Shown here: positions 9,550-18,240 of the stretch, piece after piece
How positions within the stretch are numbered: the first letter of the stretch is position 1
How the letters are laid out: every line of letters starts with the position of its first letter
Assembly: GCA_039024555.1 (NCBI GenBank)
Contig: JBCCQQ010000006.1
Coordinates: forward strand, 64,001-128,000
DNA: 64,000 nucleotides
Reading direction: 5' to 3'
DNA from: Cyanobacteria bacterium P01_D01_bin.156
GTDB taxonomy: Bacteria > Cyanobacteriota > Cyanobacteriia > Phormidesmidales > Phormidesmidaceae
Notes under the pieces: model-generated
Database searches by the model: none
Told to the model about the DNA's origin: nothing
The model's input: the letters and a program-made list of their open reading frames with translations, nothing else
Made by a program: the position numbers and the translations under genes

Positions 9550-11826
9550 ATGACCTCATCTGGTAAGCCTCAACCCAAGCAACCAGCCAGTGAGCAATTA
9601 GCAGACATGGTTCTTAAGGTGGTCAGAACTGGCGGGATTGCTGGTGGTGGCATTGGTGCGTTTTGGCAGCTGTTTCTAAATAGCGATATCCCAAAGGCAA
9701 TTGCATCATTGGTAATCGGTGCTGGCCTTTCCTATGGTGCTAAGTTGTTGATGCCCGTCCATAAAGGAAATGAGAAACGGGCGGAACAGGCTGGAAAAGC
9801 TATCAATGAAGGCATTGATCAAGTCTTTGACCAGATTACTAACCAGGTGATTGCGGCAGCAACTGGGTTTGAGAATAAGTACTTGCTGTGTCAGGCGGCA
9901 GAATGTCAGGCGTTTCGTTCTGAGGGCATGGCCCAGCATGATGGCATTTTTATTCCGCTATTGACGGAAGTATTTGTGCCGTTGGAGCTAGACTCTAGCG
10001 CTATGCAAGCAGGCTTTCACTCGCTAATGCTGGATAGAAATCAAACAAGCCAACGGGAGCTAACTATTTGGACCTTTTTAGCCCAGGCACAAAAGACACC
10101 CACATTTCGTCAGCTAGCCATTCTAGCTTGGGGTGGCTACGGTAAGACCACGCTGTTGCGGCACATTGCTTTTCGCTACGGCACTAAACAGATTCCTAAA
10201 GGAGCACCAAAGTTCATCCCTGTCCTACTGATCCTCAGACAGTATAAGGATTTACTCGCTCAGGATAATCCTCCTGACTTACCACAGTTCATCACTGACC
10301 ATCACCTACCAGATTTGCCCGGTGCCGATAATCTAAAACCACCCAAGGATTGGGCATTGAACCTTCTCAAAAGTGGTCGAGCATTGGTAATGTTGGACGG
10401 CTTTGATGAAGTTGGTACAGATCAGCGTTCAAACGTGGCTAAATGGTTAACGGCTCAAATGCGCCGCTATGGTCAGGCAGTCTTTTTGCTCACATCTCGT
10501 CCCAAAGCTTATAGAGAACAAAAAGCAGGCGCAAGGTTGCAGTTAAGTACATCCCTGTGGGTAAGAGACTTTAATGAGTTACAGAGAAAACAGTTTGTTA
10601 CCCGTTGGTATGAGTGCCAAGAACGTTATGCCAATGCTGGGCGAGAAACCCCAGATGTCAAAAAAACAGCAGATCGTGCATCCCAAAATTTACTTGCACA
10701 AATTGAATCTCAGCAGGCTCTGAAGGATTTGGCAAAAAATCCTTTGTTGCTCAATATGATTGTCACCTTCCATCGCCGGGTGCCAGGTGCGGAACTACCT
10801 AAGCGCAAGGTAGAACTGTATCGAGAAATTTGTCAGCTGCAGTTACTAGACCGCCCTAGAGCTCGTGGTGTAGGGCCTTTGATGACCCAGTACAATGCCC
10901 AGGGGATTTTGCAACAGATTGCCTTTGCCATGATGCAGCGCCAGTGGAAAAGGATTGACCAAAAGGTATTACTGCAAGGGTTAAGTCAAATTATTAAACA
11001 ACAAGACGATCAGTTTTCGGCTAAGGATTTTTTGAAGGAAGTGGTGCAAATTAGTGAGCTGCTAGTAAAGCAAGAAGACCAATATGAATTTGCTCACCTA
11101 AGTTTTCAAGAGTATTTAGCGGCGGCCCATATTGCCCAGACTAGAAAGGAACAGGTACTGTATTCGCAGTTTGACAATGATTGGTGGAAGCCAACAATTT
11201 TACTCTATGCGGGGATAGTAAGTCCAACACAGTTGATGCGAGAGGCCGTTAATCAGGGAGCAACGGATCTGGCTTATCAGTGTTTACAGGAGACGACGAA
11301 GCAGGTGGATGCCTCCCTGGCAGCTGAGCTGAAAACTGTTAAGGCAGTTGTAGTAGATGCTCGCTATGCGAACTTAGAAACGTATTTGAAAAATGGCGAG
11401 TGGGAAAAGGCAGATAATGAAACCTATCGACTGATGATCACTACCGTTGGCAAAGAAGAGAACCAGTTCTTTGAAAACGAAGAACTACTCGAATTTCCCT
11501 GTGAGGAGCTAAAGACTATTGATCAGTTGTGGGTCACCCACAGTAAGGGCAAGTATGGTTTTAGCATACAAAAGAAAATTTATTTAAGCGTTGGTGGTGT
11601 AGCCGATGGCACATATAATGATGAGGCCCATAAACAATTTTGCGATTTAGTGGCTTGGCGAAAGGACGGTTCTTACAGGTTCGAAGATATATTGATGGAT
11701 GGAAGGGGGCCTCACGGACATCTCCCTCGCCCGGTCGTTCCCAGGTTTTGGTTTATAGATCTTATGGGGGTGCTTGGGGGGGGGGTTTGGTTTTTTTTGT
11801 CTCTTCTCTCGCATCGAGACTTGTAG
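9550..11826 (+). CDS. NACHT NTPase with N-terminal hydrophobic helices and C-terminal GUN4 domain
   Basis: Walker A AWGGYGKTT, Walker B LVMLDGFDEV, NPLLL, FAHLSFQEYLAA. GUN4 motifs YANLETYLKNGEWEKADNET, FPCEELKTIDQLW, YGFSIQKKI, GHLP. Confidence 0.9.
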   Translation: MTSSGKPQPKQPASEQLADMVLKVVRTGGIAGGGIGAFWQLFLNSDIPKAIASLVIGAGLSYGAKLLMPVHKGNEKRAEQAGKAINEGIDQVFDQITNQVIAAATGFENKYLLCQAAECQAFRSEGMAQHDGIFIPLLTEVFVPLELDSSAMQAGFHSLMLDRNQTSQRELTIWTFLAQAQKTPTFRQLAILAWGGYGKTTLLRHIAFRYGTKQIPKGAPKFIPVLLILRQYKDLLAQDNPPDLPQFITDHHLPDLPGADNLKPPKDWALNLLKSGRALVMLDGFDEVGTDQRSNVAKWLTAQMRRYGQAVFLLTSRPKAYREQKAGARLQLSTSLWVRDFNELQRKQFVTRWYECQERYANAGRETPDVKKTADRASQNLLAQIESQQALKDLAKNPLLLNMIVTFHRRVPGAELPKRKVELYREICQLQLLDRPRARGVGPLMTQYNAQGILQQIAFAMMQRQWKRIDQKVLLQGLSQIIKQQDDQFSAKDFLKEVVQISELLVKQEDQYEFAHLSFQEYLAAAHIAQTRKEQVLYSQFDNDWWKPTILLYAGIVSPTQLMREAVNQGATDLAYQCLQETTKQVDASLAAELKTVKAVVVDARYANLETYLKNGEWEKADNETYRLMITTVGKEENQFFENEELLEFPCEELKTIDQLWVTHSKGKYGFSIQKKIYLSVGGVADGTYNDEAHKQFCDLVAWRKDGSYRFEDILMDGRGPHGHLPRPVVPRFWFIDLMGVLGGGVWFFLSLLSHRDL

Positions 11827-11903
11827 ACTGTAACAGATAAGCGCTACAGCCCGATCTAAACTTTCTTAAACACAGTCTCTACATACCAATCCTCGTTGTT
11901 TCG

Positions 11904-12680
11904 TCAATTCGTTACCTGGTACCCTGCTAGCTCTCTTGCCAGGTCTGGGTTATAGGCATTGGCCATCAAAAAACGTTCCGTGATATTCTGAATTTCCTCC
12001 ATAGGAGCATCCCATTCTTGCCATAGAGATTTTTGACCAGGGCTAACTTTTTTCTTGGGCTTACCCTTCAATTTCATCCTTGCTAGCAATGTATTTCCCC
12101 AGTAATTTCGCTTTTCTGGCTTTGGCCTTGGTCGATACCGCTCACAAAATTTACGATATATCGTTGCACAGATTTCCAAGGTCGCTCCCAATGCCATAAA
12201 TGCCAGGTGCCATTCGGTAATACCATCCTGGGTCAACCGTTCATAGGTTCCATAATTGCTGAAATCATAGAAAAAGCCCTGCTGCATATTGGCAGCCTTT
12301 GGGTTCCCATGGATATAGCGAATCGTATTCAATGCTCTTCGAGTATCGCTCATCTCAAAGCCGCTGCTGTGATACCGCTTTTCCCAAAAGTGCCCTGTCC
12401 GGTTCAACATTCGGTTAAAACACATGGCACTATACCAGTTCAGCCAGTGCATAATTTTCGGTAACTCTTCTGGCTGCTGCGGCTTTAACAAATAATGGAC
12501 ATGATTGCTCATAATGCACAGAGCATAGAGCCTGAAACCATATTTTTCTCGGCACTTTTGAAGTGCATATAACAATACAGAACGACATTCATACCGCGTC
12601 AATCGAAACTCTCGATTATTGCATCGTATTGTTACGTGACAACAAAGATTAGGACGTAAGTCCCTCAGTTTACGGGCCAT
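11904..12680 (-). mobile_element. REP-associated tyrosine transposase (RAYT / Y1 HUH endonuclease)
   Basis: HVTIRCNN, YALCIMSNHVHYLL (HUH motif), GHFWEKRYHS, IRYIHGNP (catalytic Tyr), FSNY. No tnpB partner and no obvious IS ends. Confidence 0.88.
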
Positions 12681-12777: not shown

Positions 12778-15700
12778 TCAAAGAAATGTTGCCTGTGTGC
12801 ATTTAAGACTCTCATTATTTTGAGGGAGTATGATTTCAAAATCTGTTGTTCCACTTTCTGCTGAATTCACAGTTAATGTGCCTGCATGTTTTCGAATAAT
12901 GGAATAGCTTACAAATAACCCAAGCCCTTTCCCCTGACCCACTGGTTTTGTTGTAAAGAAAGGCTCAAAGATTTGCTTCTGAAGTTGTTCTGGAATAACA
13001 CTGTTAGTATTGGAAATAATAATCTTCACTTTCCCAGACAAAGCCTGCTCAGTGCGAATCCGAATCTCAGGGGTATCGTCAACACAGGTATTTTCCCGAA
13101 TGGCATCGATTGCATTATTGATGATGTTCAAAAACACTTGGTTGAGCTGATTGGGGTAACACACAACTTTAGGTAATTGAGTATACTGCCGCGTAATTCT
13201 AATTTCCGGTTGCTCGCCTAATGCTTGTAGGCGGTTATTCAAAACTAAGAGGGTACTTTCAATTCCACTATGCAAATTAACAGCTTTAACAGCAGCCTGA
13301 TCTAATCGTGAGAAGTTTCGTAGACTTTGAACAATTTCGTTGATTCTTTCACTACCCACTTCAATAGAGTCCAAAATACTATTGATATCCAAAAATATAT
13401 CATCAGGTTCAATCGCGTTAATTTTTGACTGAAGAGATGGACTAGGTTGAGAATACTCATCCTGATAACTATGGAACAAATCCTGTAAATCTTTAATATA
13501 GTCTTGTAGATGAGGAACATTGCCCATAATAAATCCCACTGGATTATTGATTTCATGGGAAATTCCTGCAACTAGCTGTCCTAGTGATGACATCTTTTCA
13601 GCATGAATAAGATGGGCTTGAGTTTGCTGTAATGTTTGCAATGTTTGTTGCAGATCATTGGCTTTGCGATGAAGATCTTGGGTCTTTTGTTCAACTTCTT
13701 TTTCCAGTTTTTGAGAGTAGTTTTCTGCCTGCTGATATAAGCGGGCATTTTCAATAGAAATCGCTGCCTGACTTGCTAAAAATTGCAAGACTTCTACCCG
13801 TTCATCTGTGAATGCCCCCACCATCAAATTGTTTTCTAAATAGAGCACTCCAATCGTCTTATTCTGGAGTTTTACAGGTATACACAAAACCGACTTAGGT
13901 TTCTGGGTAAGAATATAAGGATCGGCGACAAACTGCTCATCGGCACTCAAGAATTCGAACACAGCTTTCTCTTGAGTCCGGATGACTGAGTAAACAAGAC
14001 GTTTGGGAAGACCTAAATAATGCTCTAAAGAAATATCTATTCGGTTTACCTGATTGGGGGTTGCTTCAACCACTACAGTCCATTGATTATTTTGATAAAG
14101 GAGCAAGTGACCAACTTGTGCTCCTGCATTTGCGATAACTAGATTCATCAAGGTTGTTAGCAATTTCCCAAATTCAATTTCCTGCGAAATTGCTTGCGCC
14201 GCATTTAAGATCGTTGGAATATCCAGTAAACTCTCAATTCCTTGCTTAATACTCAAAGTAGAGTAACCCTCACCTTGGTCTTTGCCCAGCAATTCTACTG
14301 AATAAAAATTTGTCTTCAAGAGATTGGGATAACGCTGTTCCAAGTGATTGAGTTTTGCTTTAGCCCCCCATCGTTTATAGCCATCATAAGCATCTTGTAG
14401 GTAGCCAACGGCCGCTTTTTTCTTGTCCCAATTCAAATAAAATCTGGCAGCTAGTTCATTCGCAAGAGCTTCTTCATAAAGACAATGCTGGGCTCTCGAC
14501 TGTGCGATCGCTTGCTCGTAAGAATCAATAGCGTCAGCATACTGACCAGACAACTTTAATTTCTCTGCTTGAACTAGCAAACATTTATGAGATATATTCT
14601 CAGGGCAGTCTTGCTCCCACTCCTTCAATTTTTTCTCTAGGAGCAAAACTTCTTGCCAATGAGATTTTCGTACCTCTTTATTGTTAGAGACTTCGAAAAT
14701 TGACAAATGCATTAATGCCGCATAGAAAACACTAGAAGGAACCTTTGCATGGCTAGGAATTGTATCCTCAATAATGCTTAACTTAGAAATTAAATCTGCA
14801 TATATGTCCTGCTGGTCAAAGAGGTAGGCATGGCGAATTTTAACAGAATAGAACCAAGCTAGATGATAAGGACTATTGTCATATTTGTGGCAGAAGCTGG
14901 CTTCGTTAAAACTTGTATCATCAAAGCTCTCGACTGTTGTTGTCAGTCCCAGTAAATGGCGAATGGGTTGAATAACACCCACAATCAAAGCATCGCGATT
15001 TTCTAGGCTTTTGATGCGATATAGAAAATCTGAATGGGCTTGAGCTGTTTGATATAACTCCTCCAAGTTTTGACCGTATGTTAATCGGTCCGAACTACTT
15101 AGCATCATTGTAAAGCTCACTGTTAGCCAGTTTCCAGCTTGCATCCCTTGCCTGAGGGCCTCTTCATAGTACACATCCGCTTCTTTAAGAGGGCGGCTCC
15201 AGCTATGAACATCGGCTGCGAATAAGAAATTGGTCATGCCACAAATGTCGGCATTATCAAACTGATCACAAAGGGCAACAGCCGTAGCACCAAAGTGATA
15301 CGCCATAGCAGCATTTCCAAGAAGTGTATTGGCAATTAACCCAAAGCCAACATAGCCAAAGGGAGACATATCACTGTTGCCATGCTGCAGTGATATGGTC
15401 GTCATTTTTGCTAGGGCAAGATACGCTAACTTTGATTGACCATCTAACCATGCTGCATAGAAAAGAACCTGCAAAATGCGTAGCATTTCTGCCACATTCT
15501 CATTCTGCATGATAGGCAAATCAATAATCGATTGGATTGAATTGTGGTTTAGAAAATGTACAACAGCTTCAATCTCACACTTTAACGCTGCATCTAAGTC
15601 AATATCATTTTTGGGTACCGGCCATCCCAATAGTTCAAGACTTTGACGCTGAATAGCAATGGCTTCCTTATTTCTTCCCTGAAGCTGATATTGAGTCATC

Positions 15701-18240
15701 TGCACTCGGTAAATCATGGCTTTGTCGAGTGCCGTTTGCGAATGATCAATAGCTAAAGCATATAGGGTTTCTGCTTGCTCAAAATTGCCACAAAGATAGG
15801 TAGCTTCAGCACCGGCATAATGCAATTGGAACATCAGAGAGTAATCAGTTTGCCAAACCTTTTCAGACAAACAATCAATACCCATAGAGTAATATTGCGC
15901 CGCTACTTCATAGGCGGATGAGGCCTTAGCCTTTTGGCCAGCTTGTAAATTGAGCTTCGCTACCGCTAGCGTCTCTTGAGGAGAAGAAATGAAATTTCGA
16001 CCTAGATTAAACTGATTGACAATAGAAAATAATTGTTCTTCTTTCTGCCTTTGAGAAAACCCTTGTAACAGCAATCGACCAATTTGAAGATGAGTACTTT
16101 GCTTTTGATTATCTGGAATCAATGTGTAGGCAGCTTGTTGAATCCGGTCATGTAAAAATCGGTATCGAATAGCACCATATTCGCCATCGCTTGTGTCATT
16201 TCCCTCCAGATAAAATGCATGTGACGAAGAGTCAGAAAGAATAAACCCCTCTTGAAGACTAATCCATAGTTTCTGGTTGACCGATTCCAGAGCCTCTTCA
16301 CAAATAATCGCTAATGTCTCTAAATCAAAATTGTTACCGATGCAGGCAGATAACTTGAGAACAGTCTGTGTGTCTTGCGGTAGTTTTTGTAAACGACTTA
16401 CCATAAACTGAACGACATTATCCGTCAGAGATAACTGTTGAACAGCACTAAGATCGCACTGCCAACACCTCATATCGCTATTAAAATAAATATTGTTGTC
16501 TCTATGTAAGCCTTTGATAAATTGAATAGTAAAGAAAGGATTTCCCTTTGTCTTACGATGAATTAGCTCAGATAAAGACACTGAGACTGCCGATGGACAC
16601 ATCATCGTATCAGTAATCAAATCAGTAATGTCTCCCTTCGTCAAAAGAGATAACATCATCGTATGAATGACTTTGCCATCTTCTCTCAGGGTATCTAATA
16701 GCCTAATCAAAGGATGGGCAGGATACACCTCGTTATCCCGATAGGCTCCTAATAATAAGAGATACCCCGCTTCTGATTCATCCATAAGAAGCTGAATCAA
16801 ACTCAATGATGCAGAATCTGCCCATTGTAGGTCATCTAAAAAGATAACGAGAGGATGCTCCTTCTTTGTGAAAAGCCTGACAAACTTGCCAAATAATAAA
16901 TTGAATCGATTCTGTTCTGCACCACCGGACAGTTTTATCGTAGGGGGCTGAGGGCCGACGATACATTCTAATTCGGGAATAACATCCGTAATAACTTGCC
17001 CACTATCTCCTAATGCAGATAATATTTTTGTTCTCCAGTGGGTTAGTTCTGCCTCCGATTCCCCAATTAATTGTTCGATCAATCCACGAAATGCCTGTAC
17101 AAATGCAGAGAAAGGTCTATCTTTGTGGAATTGATCAAATTTCCCCTGAATAAAATATCCTTTTTGTCGAGTAATCGGTTTATGAACTTCATTAATAACC
17201 GTTGTTTTACCAATGCCAGAACATCCTGACACCAACATAATTTCTGAGTTACCTTGGGTAACTCGATCAAACGTATTCAATAGACATTGCACTTCTAATT
17301 CTCGGCCATAAAGCTTCTCAGAAATCAAAAAACGATTGCTGATATCTTCTTGTCCAATCTCAAATGGTTCAATCTTTTGAGTTGTCTGAACCTGATGCAA
17401 GCAATTCTCTAAATCATATTTAAGCCCTAAACTACTCTGGTAACGATCTTCCGCATTCTTCGCCATCAGCTTATGAACAATTTGCGAAACGATCGGCGGG
17501 ATGGATTCATTGATATGGTGCAGCGGTTTGGGGATTTGGGCCAAATGACAATGCACTAGTTCTAAGGGAACCATCGATAAGAAGGGAAGTCTGCCCGTAG
17601 CTAATTCATAGAGGGTAACTCCAAGACTATAAAAATCAGTACGATAGTCGATTCCCCTGTTCATTCGTCCAGTTTGTTCTGGAGCTAAATAGGATAGAGT
17701 CCCTTCTAAACTGTTGGGCTTATTTAAGGCTTGCAATTCATAAGATAATAATGAGGCCATACCAAAATCAATGAGCCTGACTTGCTTAGATTGAGGATGG
17801 ATAATGATATTCCCAGGATTAATATTTTTATGAATGATTCGGCATTGATATAAATTATGTAAAATTTCTGAAAGCTGGATAGCAATCTTCAAAGTATCGA
17901 CAAGGGATAAAGAGAATTGCTTCACATAGTCTCTTAGAGCAATACTATTGTAATCTTCCATCACCAAGGCATAACTATTTTCACGTAGCTCAAGGCTAGC
18001 GGCATGAACAATACCAGGAATGAGAAGATTCTTGGTGATCTTATATTCGTTTCGTAATAGCTGCTGTTGTCTAAGGGTTAGATATTCGTCACGCAATAAC
18101 TTAATGACAACAGTTCGGCCCTGACTCTCTTGAATAGCCTGATAAACAATTATTTTTGGGCTACTGTAAAGAGGCTTAGTAGGTGTATATCCAGATAGTT
18201 GAGGCAAGCTATTGTGTTGATAACTGGGAAGCAAGGCCAT
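12778..18240 (-). CDS. Ser/Thr kinase-AAA ATPase-GAF-histidine kinase (HstK-type)
   Basis: Kinase domain (VVIK, DFG, YLAPEQTGRMNR), Walker A GCSGIGKT, LDDLQWAD, GAF (LYLENN), HisKA (HEINNP), HATPase (GKGLGL). Confidence 0.93.
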   Translation of the reverse strand: MALLPSYQHNSLPQLSGYTPTKPLYSSPKIIVYQAIQESQGRTVVIKLLRDEYLTLRQQQLLRNEYKITKNLLIPGIVHAASLELRENSYALVMEDYNSIALRDYVKQFSLSLVDTLKIAIQLSEILHNLYQCRIIHKNINPGNIIIHPQSKQVRLIDFGMASLLSYELQALNKPNSLEGTLSYLAPEQTGRMNRGIDYRTDFYSLGVTLYELATGRLPFLSMVPLELVHCHLAQIPKPLHHINESIPPIVSQIVHKLMAKNAEDRYQSSLGLKYDLENCLHQVQTTQKIEPFEIGQEDISNRFLISEKLYGRELEVQCLLNTFDRVTQGNSEIMLVSGCSGIGKTTVINEVHKPITRQKGYFIQGKFDQFHKDRPFSAFVQAFRGLIEQLIGESEAELTHWRTKILSALGDSGQVITDVIPELECIVGPQPPTIKLSGGAEQNRFNLLFGKFVRLFTKKEHPLVIFLDDLQWADSASLSLIQLLMDESEAGYLLLLGAYRDNEVYPAHPLIRLLDTLREDGKVIHTMMLSLLTKGDITDLITDTMMCPSAVSVSLSELIHRKTKGNPFFTIQFIKGLHRDNNIYFNSDMRCWQCDLSAVQQLSLTDNVVQFMVSRLQKLPQDTQTVLKLSACIGNNFDLETLAIICEEALESVNQKLWISLQEGFILSDSSSHAFYLEGNDTSDGEYGAIRYRFLHDRIQQAAYTLIPDNQKQSTHLQIGRLLLQGFSQRQKEEQLFSIVNQFNLGRNFISSPQETLAVAKLNLQAGQKAKASSAYEVAAQYYSMGIDCLSEKVWQTDYSLMFQLHYAGAEATYLCGNFEQAETLYALAIDHSQTALDKAMIYRVQMTQYQLQGRNKEAIAIQRQSLELLGWPVPKNDIDLDAALKCEIEAVVHFLNHNSIQSIIDLPIMQNENVAEMLRILQVLFYAAWLDGQSKLAYLALAKMTTISLQHGNSDMSPFGYVGFGLIANTLLGNAAMAYHFGATAVALCDQFDNADICGMTNFLFAADVHSWSRPLKEADVYYEEALRQGMQAGNWLTVSFTMMLSSSDRLTYGQNLEELYQTAQAHSDFLYRIKSLENRDALIVGVIQPIRHLLGLTTTVESFDDTSFNEASFCHKYDNSPYHLAWFYSVKIRHAYLFDQQDIYADLISKLSIIEDTIPSHAKVPSSVFYAALMHLSIFEVSNNKEVRKSHWQEVLLLEKKLKEWEQDCPENISHKCLLVQAEKLKLSGQYADAIDSYEQAIAQSRAQHCLYEEALANELAARFYLNWDKKKAAVGYLQDAYDGYKRWGAKAKLNHLEQRYPNLLKTNFYSVELLGKDQGEGYSTLSIKQGIESLLDIPTILNAAQAISQEIEFGKLLTTLMNLVIANAGAQVGHLLLYQNNQWTVVVEATPNQVNRIDISLEHYLGLPKRLVYSVIRTQEKAVFEFLSADEQFVADPYILTQKPKSVLCIPVKLQNKTIGVLYLENNLMVGAFTDERVEVLQFLASQAAISIENARLYQQAENYSQKLEKEVEQKTQDLHRKANDLQQTLQTLQQTQAHLIHAEKMSSLGQLVAGISHEINNPVGFIMGNVPHLQDYIKDLQDLFHSYQDEYSQPSPSLQSKINAIEPDDIFLDINSILDSIEVGSERINEIVQSLRNFSRLDQAAVKAVNLHSGIESTLLVLNNRLQALGEQPEIRITRQYTQLPKVVCYPNQLNQVFLNIINNAIDAIRENTCVDDTPEIRIRTEQALSGKVKIIISNTNSVIPEQLQKQIFEPFFTTKPVGQGKGLGLFVSYSIIRKHAGTLTVNSAESGTTDFEIILPQNNESLKCTQATFL

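What the first reader, a model, noticed from the sequence alone, without database searches (positions are those of the whole stretch)
11799..11840. GUN4 tail encodes a plausible C-terminus in all three reading frames
Seen: GTCTCTTCTCTCGCATCGAGACTTGTAGACTGTAACAGATAA reads SLLSHRDL* (current frame, stop ends 11826), LFSRIETCRL* (stop ends 11833) and VSSLASRLVDCNR* (stop ends 11840). The stops are staggered by exactly 7 nt. From memory, not from a search, all three ending types (LLSRRDL, LFSRVETCKL, SSLASRLVxCN) occur on cyanobacterial GUN4-domain proteins. Inference: the DNA rather than a single peptide is conserved. It tolerates any upstream indel and may also act as a cis recognition site.
Basis: partly seen in the sequence, partly recalled or inferred. 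Interest (0 to 1): 0.85.

Follow-up and report, generated by a model that had tools for sequence, protein, structure and literature searches.

The report
Three-frame DNA ending of GUN4 genes
The last 41 bases of this cyanobacterial immune-type (NACHT-GUN4) gene are a nearly fixed stretch of DNA that related genes read in all three frames, after a short stretch that differs completely from gene to gene and before a transposase-like gene.

Summary
Window 11799-11840 reads SLLSHRDL*, LFSRIETCRL* and VSSLASRLVDCNR*, with stops 7 nt apart. The core 21-mer occurs 96 times in 60 of 401 Cyanobacteriota genomes, against 0 for the reversed control. Of 154 loci, 140 follow a GUN4 domain. Long upstream ORFs use the three frames 58/38/37 times, with 21 unclear.

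Bases +24 to +37 are equally conserved whether translated or past the stop, so the DNA is conserved, not one peptide. Conservation starts sharply at -3. Upstream lies a G/T-rich spacer, median 53 nt and 122 of 132 unique. It replaces the Gun4 segment that carries the porphyrin-binding arginines.

Downstream lie conserved non-coding DNA, an imperfect hairpin, and a convergent RAYT-like (HUH/Tyr) gene or its 3' remnant. This copy is not a frameshift error.

Two caveats apply. One frame (LFSR..C) is also conserved as protein in diverged copies. Most spacers hold off-frame stops.

The function as a cis site of the nuclease, and any active rewriting of the spacer, are inferred and not shown. This scan reported the same module before on other genomes.

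The parts
9550..11826 (+). NACHT-GUN4 gene (758 aa): N-terminal Gly-rich hydrophobic region, NACHT NTPase (aa 196-354), GUN4 domain (aa 603-727)
   Evidence: ORF; Pfam; GUN4 fold Z 19.2 to 4XKB
11356..11730 (+). GUN4 core domain, matched to Pfam positions 5-124 of 141. It ends at the GHLP codons (11716-11727), and the canonical last helix is not matched.
11728..11799 (+). Spacer of 72 nt between the GHLP codons and the block. It is unique to this gene, G/T-rich, and holds G10 (11776-11785) and T8 (11791-11798).
   Evidence: It has no other copy in the own genome.
11800..11840 (+). Near-invariant 41-nt block (-3 to +37), open in three frames, with stops at 11824-26, 11831-33 and 11838-40. It holds a small TCTCG/CGAGA stem and a GTAG tag (11823-11826).
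11828..11849 (.). Imperfect 7-bp hairpin (C-TGTAAC / G-c-TACAG), loop 11835-11842
   Evidence: 69% of cells paired against 32-43% when slid, with A:U to G:C covariation at one pair. Not found by RNAalifold.
11841..11903 (.). Conserved non-coding DNA between the third stop and the stop of the convergent gene
   Evidence: It is 77.7% identical between the paralogous loci C6 and C40, starting exactly at the block.
11904..12680 (-). Convergent RAYT-like Y1 (HUH) gene, 258 aa. HUH = SNHVHYLL and the Tyr motif = RYIHGNP. The DNA of its last codons (11910-11922, CGTTACCTGGTAC) is kept even where the gene has decayed.

Best explanation
The end of this NACHT-GUN4 gene is one copy of a module that recurs in Cyanobacteriia. 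The parts, in order, are as follows. (a) The GUN4 core up to the GHLP motif. (b) A spacer of 13-152 nt that is unique to each gene, G/T-rich and prone to slippage. (c) A block of about 41 nt, conserved as DNA, that finishes the reading frame with a short helix-forming peptide and a stop in whichever frame the spacer delivers. (d) About 80 nt of conserved non-coding DNA with an imperfect hairpin. (e) A convergent RAYT-like HUH/tyrosine nuclease gene, or its 3' remnant.

Shown: the block is conserved as nucleotides, independently of the frame used. All three frames are in natural use. The window's frame (LLSH) is one of them and is not an error. The spacer takes the place of the Gun4 segment that carries the porphyrin-binding Arg214 and Arg217.

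Inferred: the block is kept because it is a cis site (a GTAR tag plus hairpin, REP-like) for the neighbouring nuclease, or for a relative acting in trans. The three-frame ending lets the length of a ligand-contact segment of an immune-type sensor change without loss of the protein's last helix. How spacers are replaced is not shown. The possibilities are a nick at the block followed by local resynthesis, slippage, or recombination.
For: Spread and specificity: 96 exact hits in 60 of 401 genomes against 0 for the control. 140 of 154 blocks follow a GUN4 domain, and 9 of the 14 misses have under 300 nt of upstream DNA. In the own genome 4 of 4 blocks follow one.

Frames: 58/38/37, with 21 unclear, of 154, and 54/35/34 after removing duplicates.

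DNA-level constraint: identity to the consensus at +24 to +30 and +31 to +37 is .886/.820 where untranslated (LLSR users) and .887/.819 where translated (SLAS users). All three stops are present in 103 of 123 loci. Conservation continues into non-coding DNA to about +120.

Sharp edge: information content falls from 1.74 at -1 to about 0.1 at -4. In metagenome contigs, unlike G/T-rich sequences join at 11802.

Spacer: 122 of 132 are unique, with composition A .17, C .11, G .40, T .32. Only one homologous pair was found, and no template elsewhere in the own genome. Loci 86-95% identical in the GUN4 domain carry unrelated spacers of different length, and 17 of 36 such pairs differ in frame. Homopolymers of 6 or more occur in 32 of 122 spacers against 5 of 103 controls. 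Direct repeats of 10 nt or more occur in 10 of 122 against 1 of 106.

Nuclease link: all 3 full copies of this Y1 subfamily in the own genome sit convergently 80-123 nt beyond position +21 of a block. The fourth own block is followed by a second Y1 type. Across the 154 loci, 21 have a full copy and 26 have partial hits, mostly C-terminal pieces that abut the block. In five other genomes, 5 of 7 substantial Y1 hits lie next to a GUN4 gene end. The best family is REP-associated tyrosine transposase. The HUH motif is invariant and the Tyr motif (RYIHxNP) is kept in at least 80% of 20 copies.

Structure: AF2 models of an LLSH-type tail (the window) and a SLAS-type tail (L010) both end in a helix after a low-confidence spacer. 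Both fit Gun4 structures over their whole length.

Position of the spacer: by the alignment offsets and Verdecia 2005 (PMC1084334, passages read), Arg214 and Arg217 lie 6 and 9 residues after the proline of GHLP.
Against: G366 has 3 exact blocks but no window-type Y1 was found there with this query. Its second-type Y1 genes are not adjacent to the blocks. 2 of 7 Y1 copies, which are one orthologous locus in two congeners, are not beside a GUN4 gene.

Spacers are not always replaced. L016 and L040 are 93.5% identical upstream yet share an identical spacer.

RNAalifold finds no consensus structure. The hairpin is imperfect: 3 of its 7 pairs are unpaired in 39-59% of sequences.

The invariance of columns 1-20 is partly imposed by the search pattern. 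In a sample chosen by GUN4 domain from 12 relatives, only 3 of 16 non-canonical GUN4 gene ends had a block-like sequence with up to 8 of 37 mismatches.

The LFSR excess, and the protein-level conservation of that motif in diverged copies, show that the peptide matters in at least one frame.

No read-level data were available, so no variation within a culture has been seen.
Confidence: 0.55

Rival explanations
1. This copy is a simple frameshift allele or a sequencing or assembly error in the G10 or T8 run. The true C-terminus would be LFSRIETCRL.
For: Homopolymers sit directly upstream. LFSR is the commonest frame (58 of 133 assigned), and it is the frame conserved as protein in diverged copies. 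Logan contigs break at 11789, between the two runs.
Against: Logan's independent contigs reproduce G10 and T8 with no differences and no indels. 38 loci, among them two own paralogues without homopolymers (C40 and C60, SLLSHPGL*), use the same frame on long ORFs. This frame reads LLSH(R/P), like the canonical Gun4 end LLSHPAW. AF2 places the tail where the canonical last helix lies.
Confidence: 0.07
2. The block and the Y1 gene together are an IS200/IS605-type transposon, or its relic, that has inserted into the 3' ends of GUN4 genes. The block would be its terminal sequence, and the frame would be an accident of insertion.
For: Similarity between paralogous loci starts exactly at the block and runs through the Y1 gene (77.7% over 851 nt). 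There is a series of 5'-truncated Y1 remnants that keep the end next to the block. A subterminal imperfect hairpin is present. The protein matches the Y1_Tnp Pfam family.
Against: Similarity stops about 30 nt short of the Y1 start, so there is no conserved far end. The block is found only at GUN4 gene ends, whereas the short target sites of this IS family (recalled, from no call) could not give such specificity. The protein scores as RAYT (61 bits) rather than IS200 (23 bits). In one frame the block reads like the native Gun4 C-terminus, and diverged tails exist without any Y1, so the block looks native to the gene.
Confidence: 0.12
3. There is no special mechanism. The spacer is an unconstrained linker that drifts by ordinary indels and by recombination between paralogues. 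The block is kept for an RNA-level or gene-expression role, such as the 3' end of two convergent transcripts, or through gene conversion.
For: Conserved non-coding DNA lies between convergent genes. One contig from an RNA library covers 11802-11923. Some related loci keep identical spacers. Blocks persist where no window-type Y1 was found.
Against: At 86-95% flank identity a neutral linker should still align, yet the spacers are unrelated. No spacer is shared between different flanks. There is no consensus RNA structure, no Rfam match and no terminator-like site at the block. The strong and specific link to the Y1 subfamily is left unexplained.
Confidence: 0.22

Closest known systems
REP elements with their RAYT (REP-associated tyrosine transposase, TnpA-REP), e.g. 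E. coli YafM; Di Nocera 2013 (PMC3733652) and Bertels 2017 (PMC5581495), passages read
   Same: The enzyme is a single-domain HUH/Tyr protein whose best family match is RAYT. It is low-copy and housekeeping-like. It lies next to a short conserved DNA with a GTAG/GTAA tag directly 5' of an imperfect hairpin. Per PMC3733652, RAYT cuts single-stranded REP DNA at GTAG. Per PMC5581495, RAYT group 4 is common in cyanobacteria.
   Different: The score is below NCBIfam's cut-off (61 against 80 bits). The cis element is not a dispersed high-copy repeat (4 copies in 6.6 Mb). It lies on one side of the gene only. It overlaps the end of a protein-coding gene and always the same kind of gene. The protein has a 130-aa C-terminal extension.
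Diversity-generating retroelements on C-terminal sensor domains of cyanobacterial kinase/caspase/NACHT proteins (PMC7517822; PMC7159879, passages read)
   Same: A hypervariable stretch sits at the 3' end of a multidomain conflict or signalling gene, next to a fixed DNA element. In these architectures GUN4 and the DGR-targeted FGS domain occupy the same position.
   Different: The spacer has no template repeat in the genome. Spacers differ in length and in their whole sequence, not at adenine-templated positions only. The neighbouring gene is an HUH nuclease, not a reverse transcriptase.
Simple-sequence contingency loci (phase variation by slipped-strand mispairing)
   Same: Homopolymeric G and T tracts lie inside the coding end: G10 and T8 here, and runs of 6 or more in 32 of 122 spacers against 5 of 103 controls. 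Frame changes occur between relatives.
   Different: A frame change here does not switch the gene off, because every frame ends in a short helix-forming tail within 14 codons. Most spacers (90 of 122) have no long tract. Spacers are replaced wholesale.
Bacterial NACHT (NLR-related) proteins with 'other C-terminal sensor domains' (Kibby et al. 2022 preprint, 10.1101/2022.07.19.500537, passages read)
   Same: The architecture is NACHT plus a C-terminal GUN4 sensor in cyanobacteria, which the preprint names explicitly.
   Different: The passages read say nothing of a variable tail, of the three-frame ending or of the nuclease neighbour.

Membership tests
GUN4 domain (PF05419) | Profile match above the gathering score, and the Gun4 fold | tested here: met
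   105 bits against a cut-off of 29.2. The AF2 model aligns to 4XKB at Z 19.2, rmsd 2.2 A, 144 residues.
GUN4 domain (PF05419) | Canonical segment after GHLP that carries Arg214 and Arg217, and the end hhxHPAW | tested here: not met
   The Pfam match stops at position 124 of 141. The segment is replaced by the spacer. The end SLLSHRDL only resembles LLSHPAW.
NACHT NTPase (PF05729) | Profile match above the gathering score | tested here: met
   55.9 bits against 26.7.
RAYT / REP-associated tyrosine transposase (NF047646) | Curated score cut-off | tested here: not met
   61.3 bits against a cut-off of 80. It is still the best family, with IS200 at 22.7 bits.
RAYT / REP-associated tyrosine transposase (NF047646) | HUH motif and catalytic tyrosine | tested here: met
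   SNHvHYL is invariant in 20 copies. RYIHxNP is conserved in at least 80% of them.
RAYT / REP-associated tyrosine transposase (NF047646) | Flanked by its own dispersed, high-copy REP hairpins with a GTAG tag | tested here: not met
   The block occurs 4 times in the own genome and only at GUN4 gene ends. A GTAR tag plus an imperfect hairpin is present on one side.
RAYT / REP-associated tyrosine transposase (NF047646) | Binds and cuts its single-stranded REP | not testable with these tools
   This needs purified protein and oligonucleotides.
IS200/IS605 transposon | Two conserved ends (LE and RE) around tnpA, and several near-identical copies | tested here: not met
   Paralogous loci are only 77.7% identical, and the similarity ends before the Y1 start.
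Diversity-generating retroelement | A template repeat homologous to the variable region | tested here: not met
   The own spacers hit only themselves in the own genome.
Diversity-generating retroelement | A reverse transcriptase nearby | not tested
   No search for a reverse transcriptase was run.
Contingency locus (phase variation) | A repeat tract in the coding region | tested here: met
   G10 and T8 in the window.
Contingency locus (phase variation) | Tract length varies within a population | not testable with these tools
   Only contigs, not reads, were on hand. They show no indel.

The most novel reading that the evidence does not exclude
A diversification system without a reverse transcriptase. 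A domesticated RAYT-like HUH nuclease would nick single-stranded DNA at the fixed block. This would trigger replacement or re-synthesis of the adjoining spacer, which forms the ligand-contact segment of GUN4 sensors on NACHT, kinase and caspase immune-type proteins. The three-frame block would guarantee a finished protein whatever length results.
Probability: 0.2. Interest if true: 0.95.

Novelty: new variant of a known kind. Interest (0 to 1): 0.78.

Why it matters
A stretch of DNA kept for its nucleotides yet translated in all three frames by different natural genes is very unusual. I found no description of it in print. Full-text searches were GUN4 + cyanobacteria + transposase, GUN4 + hypervariable, RAYT + cyanobacteria + REP, and PD-T4-6 + GUN4.

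The finding marks the segment of the GUN4 sensor that replaces the porphyrin-binding arginines as a hot spot of change in bacterial NLR-like proteins. It also gives cyanobacterial RAYTs, whose function is unknown, a concrete candidate substrate that can be tested. If the nuclease drives the change, this would be a new kind of targeted protein diversification. For annotation it means two things: these gene ends should not be 'corrected' as frameshifts, and protein families will show three unrelated-looking C-termini.

Tried and rejected
RNAalifold on 145 sequences (-6 to +125) gave no consensus structure: -0.42 kcal/mol and 3 trivial pairs.

Rfam with E up to 1 on window 11600-12100 gave nothing.

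The terminator and promoter scan found no site at the block.

Single-strand DNA folds of the window element were no better than shuffles, with z -0.09 and -0.42. For L016 z was -1.8 and -2.0.

Sequencing runs were served only as Logan contigs, so heterogeneity at G10 and T8 within a population could not be assessed.

Earlier findings looked up by place and by sequence returned nothing.

The search for a spacer template in the own genome found only self-hits and matches of 19 nt or less at E about 0.3.

The PDB sequence search with the Y1 protein gave no hit at E up to 1.

Congeners (G401-G408) proved too diverged, at 73-77% nucleotide identity, for a fine-scale comparison of the orthologous spacer.

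The idea that the spacer is stop-free in all frames ('adenine-free') was rejected as a general rule: 31 of 103 spacers, and 33 against 40 stops per kb.

No 5'-to-3' composition gradient worth the name was seen in the spacer, with G going from .37 to .42.

Programmed ribosomal frameshifting was considered and dropped. The spacer is not conserved, so no shared slippery site can exist.

Full report
OBSERVATION. It gives SLLSHRDL* in the frame of ORF 9550-11826, LFSRIETCRL* and VSSLASRLVDCNR*. The stops end at 11826, 11833 and 11840. The ORF is a 758-aa protein with a NACHT NTPase and a C-terminal GUN4 domain. This architecture is already described for cyanobacterial NLR-like proteins (Kibby 2022 preprint, passages; Kaur 2020 and 2021, passages). 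G10 (11776-85) and T8 (11791-98) lie just upstream.

THE BLOCK IS A CONSERVED PIECE OF DNA AT GUN4 GENE ENDS.
- In the window's own genome (6.6 Mb) the block occurs four times with up to 9 of 39 mismatches. Each copy is at the 3' end of a GUN4-domain gene. Three are read as SLLSH... and one as LFSRIQACKV.
- The 21-mer CTTCTCTCGCRTCSAGRCTTG hits 96 places in 60 of 401 genomes sampled from the phylum (31 of 156 genera). All 60 are of the window's own class (Cyanobacteriia) or family. The reversed pattern hits none.
All were cyanobacterial records except one 'uncultured bacterium'. One MAG is labelled Sericytochromatia.
- I oriented 154 loci. A few are the same genome held in two collections, and about 40 have only some 300 nt of flank. 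Of these, 140 have a GUN4-like tblastn hit ending within 400 nt upstream. Of the 14 misses, 9 have under 300 nt of upstream DNA.

ALL THREE FRAMES ARE USED.
- The long upstream ORF enters the block in the LFSR frame in 58 loci, the LLSR frame in 38 and the SLAS frame in 37, with 21 unclear. After removing duplicates the counts are 54, 35 and 34.
- Many of these ORFs are over 445 aa and show the GHLP motif of GUN4.
- Among 36 locus pairs at least 85% identical over at least 350 nt of the GUN4 domain, 17 differ in frame. Four of the 36 pairs are 100% identical and are probably the same genome.

DNA, NOT PEPTIDE.
- Columns +21 to +37, which my pattern did not fix, carry 1-1.8 bits except +25 and +34.
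- Identity to the consensus at +24 to +30 and +31 to +37 is .886 and .820 in genes whose stop is already at +21 to +23. It is .887 and .819 in genes that translate these bases.
- 103 of 123 loci keep all three stops, whichever one they use.
- Conservation runs on through non-coding DNA to about +120. It includes the motif CGATACCTGGCAC, which is the reverse complement of the last codons of the neighbouring gene and survives where that gene is gone.
- Caveat: columns 1-20 were largely fixed by the search pattern. The freest unselected columns (+25, +34, then +31, +37, +22) are third positions of the SLAS frame, so some codon-like periodicity exists.

SHARP EDGE AND A SPACER UNIQUE TO EACH GENE.
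- Information content drops from 1.74 bits at -1 to about 0.1 at -4.
- Between the GHLP codons and the block lies a spacer with a median of 53 nt (range 13-152). Of 132 spacers, 122 are unique. Composition is A .17, C .11, G .40, T .32.
- Only one pair of spacers is homologous. The four own spacers have no other copy in the own genome.
- Loci whose GUN4 domains are 86-95% identical carry unrelated spacers of different length, for example L050/L057 at 95.4% and the tandem paralogues L086/L087 at 93.8%. L016 and L040 (93.5%) share an identical spacer, so replacement is not constant.
- Spacers are rich in G and T homopolymers: runs of 6 or more in 32 of 122 against 5 of 103 controls. The window's G10 is the longest. 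They are also rich in local direct repeats (10 of 122 against 1 of 106), some of which duplicate the GHLP codons.
- Spacers are not generally stop-free. Only 31 of 103 are open in all frames, against 10 of 103 controls.
- In a metagenome that holds this locus, Logan contigs reproduce G10 and T8 without differences. Many other contigs with unlike G/T-rich sequence join at 11802.

WHAT THE SPACER REPLACES.
- Canonical Gun4 continues after GHLP with L-(S/T)-NQLRGV(R/Q)...LL(S/C/N)HPAW.
- By the alignment offsets, the two arginines 6 and 9 residues after the proline of GHLP are Arg214 and Arg217 of Synechocystis Gun4. This mapping assumes no internal gaps. Verdecia et al. 2005 place these residues on the alpha6/alpha7 loop, model them on the porphyrin carboxylates, and find Arg214 essential for binding (PMC1084334, passages).
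- In the fusion-type genes exactly this segment is the variable spacer.

ORIGIN OF THE BLOCK AND THE ROLE OF THE PEPTIDE.
- In a sample chosen by GUN4 domain from 12 relatives I examined 27 fetched loci out of 60 matches. The 11 canonical Gun4 genes end in hhxH(P/A/K)A(W/I), with ordinary synonymous variation. In the window's genus this reads (F)LLSHPAW, the same residues as the block's LLSH frame, at 13-15 of 21 nt.
- Of the 16 other GUN4 gene ends, only 3 have a block-like sequence with up to 8 of 37 mismatches. Eight end in a related peptide of the LFSR type (LFSRMDACH, IFSRIKTCEV, LFSRIHACKS, FLNRLITCDM and others), encoded with different codons. One carries the motif internally, between two GUN4 domains.
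- So one frame is conserved as protein where the DNA block has decayed. LLSHP and FSRIQ are two readings of the same bases.
- AF2 with 89-sequence alignments predicts a terminal helix after a low-confidence spacer for both tail types. For the window's LLSH-type tail pLDDT is 50-60 in the spacer and 73 at the end. For the SLAS-type tail of L010 it is 80-89.
- Both models fit Gun4 structures over their whole length. The window model aligns to 4XKB at Z 19.2, model residues 1-165 on chain 45-228. L010 gives TM 0.78-0.80 over 163-165 columns. This is prediction, not proof.

THE NEIGHBOUR.
- Right after the block, convergent, lies a 258-aa Y1_Tnp protein. Its best NCBIfam match is REP-associated tyrosine transposase, at 61.3 bits below the cut-off of 80. 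IS200 scores 22.7 bits.
- The own genome has three full copies of this subfamily, and all three are next to blocks. The fourth block is followed by a second, 191-aa Y1 type.
- Nucleotide similarity between the paralogous loci C6 and C40 begins exactly at the block. It runs through the Y1 gene (77.7% over 851 nt) and ends about 30 nt before its start.
- Across the 154 loci, 21 have a full copy and 26 have partial hits. Most of these are C-terminal remnants that keep the end next to the block.
- The HUH motif is invariant and the Tyr motif (RYIHxNP) is kept in at least 80% of 20 copies.
- In five other genomes, 5 of 7 substantial hits lie beside a GUN4 gene end. One of these has a one-mismatch block and one a disrupted block. 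The other 2 of 7, one orthologous locus in two congeners, do not.
- G366 has three exact blocks but no window-type Y1 was found with this query. Its second-type Y1 genes are not adjacent.
- The block contains GTAR (GTAG in 30 and GTAA in 109 of 139 sequences) directly 5' of an imperfect 7-bp hairpin. The hairpin is 69% paired against 32-43% in slid controls. One pair covaries A:U to G:C, and 0 of 500 shuffles reach the covariation score.
- This resembles GTAG-tagged REPs, which E. coli RAYT cuts as single-stranded DNA (PMC3733652, passages). RAYT group 4 is common in cyanobacteria (PMC5581495, passages).

READING.
- Shown: a DNA-level conserved, three-frame gene end; a spacer unique to each gene at a ligand-contact position; and a strong though not absolute link to a RAYT-like gene.
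- Inferred: the block is the nuclease's cis site, and the arrangement lets the sensor's tip change length without loss of the last helix. Whether spacers are actively rewritten is open.
- Rivals: a sequencing error (rejected), an IS relic, and passive drift combined with an RNA-level role. They are weighed in their own sections.

PRIOR WORK. I found no paper that describes this (searches; only passages of the cited papers were read, and no supplements). This scan has reported the same module on other genomes. Those notes agree with what I tested here independently.

Noticed in passing
window 11203-11736 (aa 552-729 of the NACHT-GUN4 protein): The PADLOC model PD-T4-6, a model from an anti-phage defence library, matches the GUN4 region at E 2.3e-32 (profile 255-426 of 450). 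No paper in the library holds both 'PD-T4-6' and 'GUN4'.
   Followed up: partly
L003:224-799 (own genome contig C60): A second, 191-aa Y1/RAYT-like type sits convergently after the C60 block. Its homologues in five other genomes, at most 46% identical, lie away from the exact blocks.
   Followed up: partly
own genome C37:40116-40244: An isolated fragment of the window-type Y1 gene (aa 20-62, 56% identical), not next to a block.
   Followed up: no
L183 (G409:C82:107987-108862): One ORF holds two tandem GUN4 domains. The first ends with the motif LLHRIEACNL internally, which shows that the LFSR-type motif belongs to the domain.
   Followed up: partly
L086 and L087 (Dolichospermum planctonicum NIES-80, NZ_BJCF01000007.1): Two GUN4 gene ends about 2.4 kb apart have domains 93.8% identical but unrelated spacers (52 and 90 nt) and different frames (SLAS and LFSR).
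   Followed up: partly
L159 (G240:C73:1-3200): A GUN4 gene ends ...VLFSLL* about 360 nt from a Y1 gene. The block appears to be disrupted, and the gap holds palindromic repeats of the type GGGTTGAGGTACAAAAYCCAAC.
   Followed up: no
L076 and L066: A MAG labelled Candidatus Sericytochromatia carries a block and flank nearly identical to those of a Cyanobacteriota MAG. This could be mis-binning or transfer.
   Followed up: no
L114 (Nostoc linckia NIES-25 plasmid1, AP018223.1): One copy of the module lies on a 1.78-Mb plasmid record.
   Followed up: no
window 11789: The two Logan contigs that tile the locus meet exactly between G10 and T8, with depths 20.3 and 13. The cause is unknown. It could be a branch in the assembly graph at the shared block or a drop in coverage at the homopolymers.
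   Followed up: no
window 12778-18240 (-): An 1820-aa multidomain protein, by its sequence a kinase-like N-terminus followed by ATPase, GAF and histidine-kinase parts, ends 97 nt upstream of the Y1 start codon. I did not study it.
   Followed up: no
L100, L131, L062, L151 downstream of the block: Runs of the heptamer AAAAGTC interrupt the conserved downstream element in several Nostocales loci.
   Followed up: no
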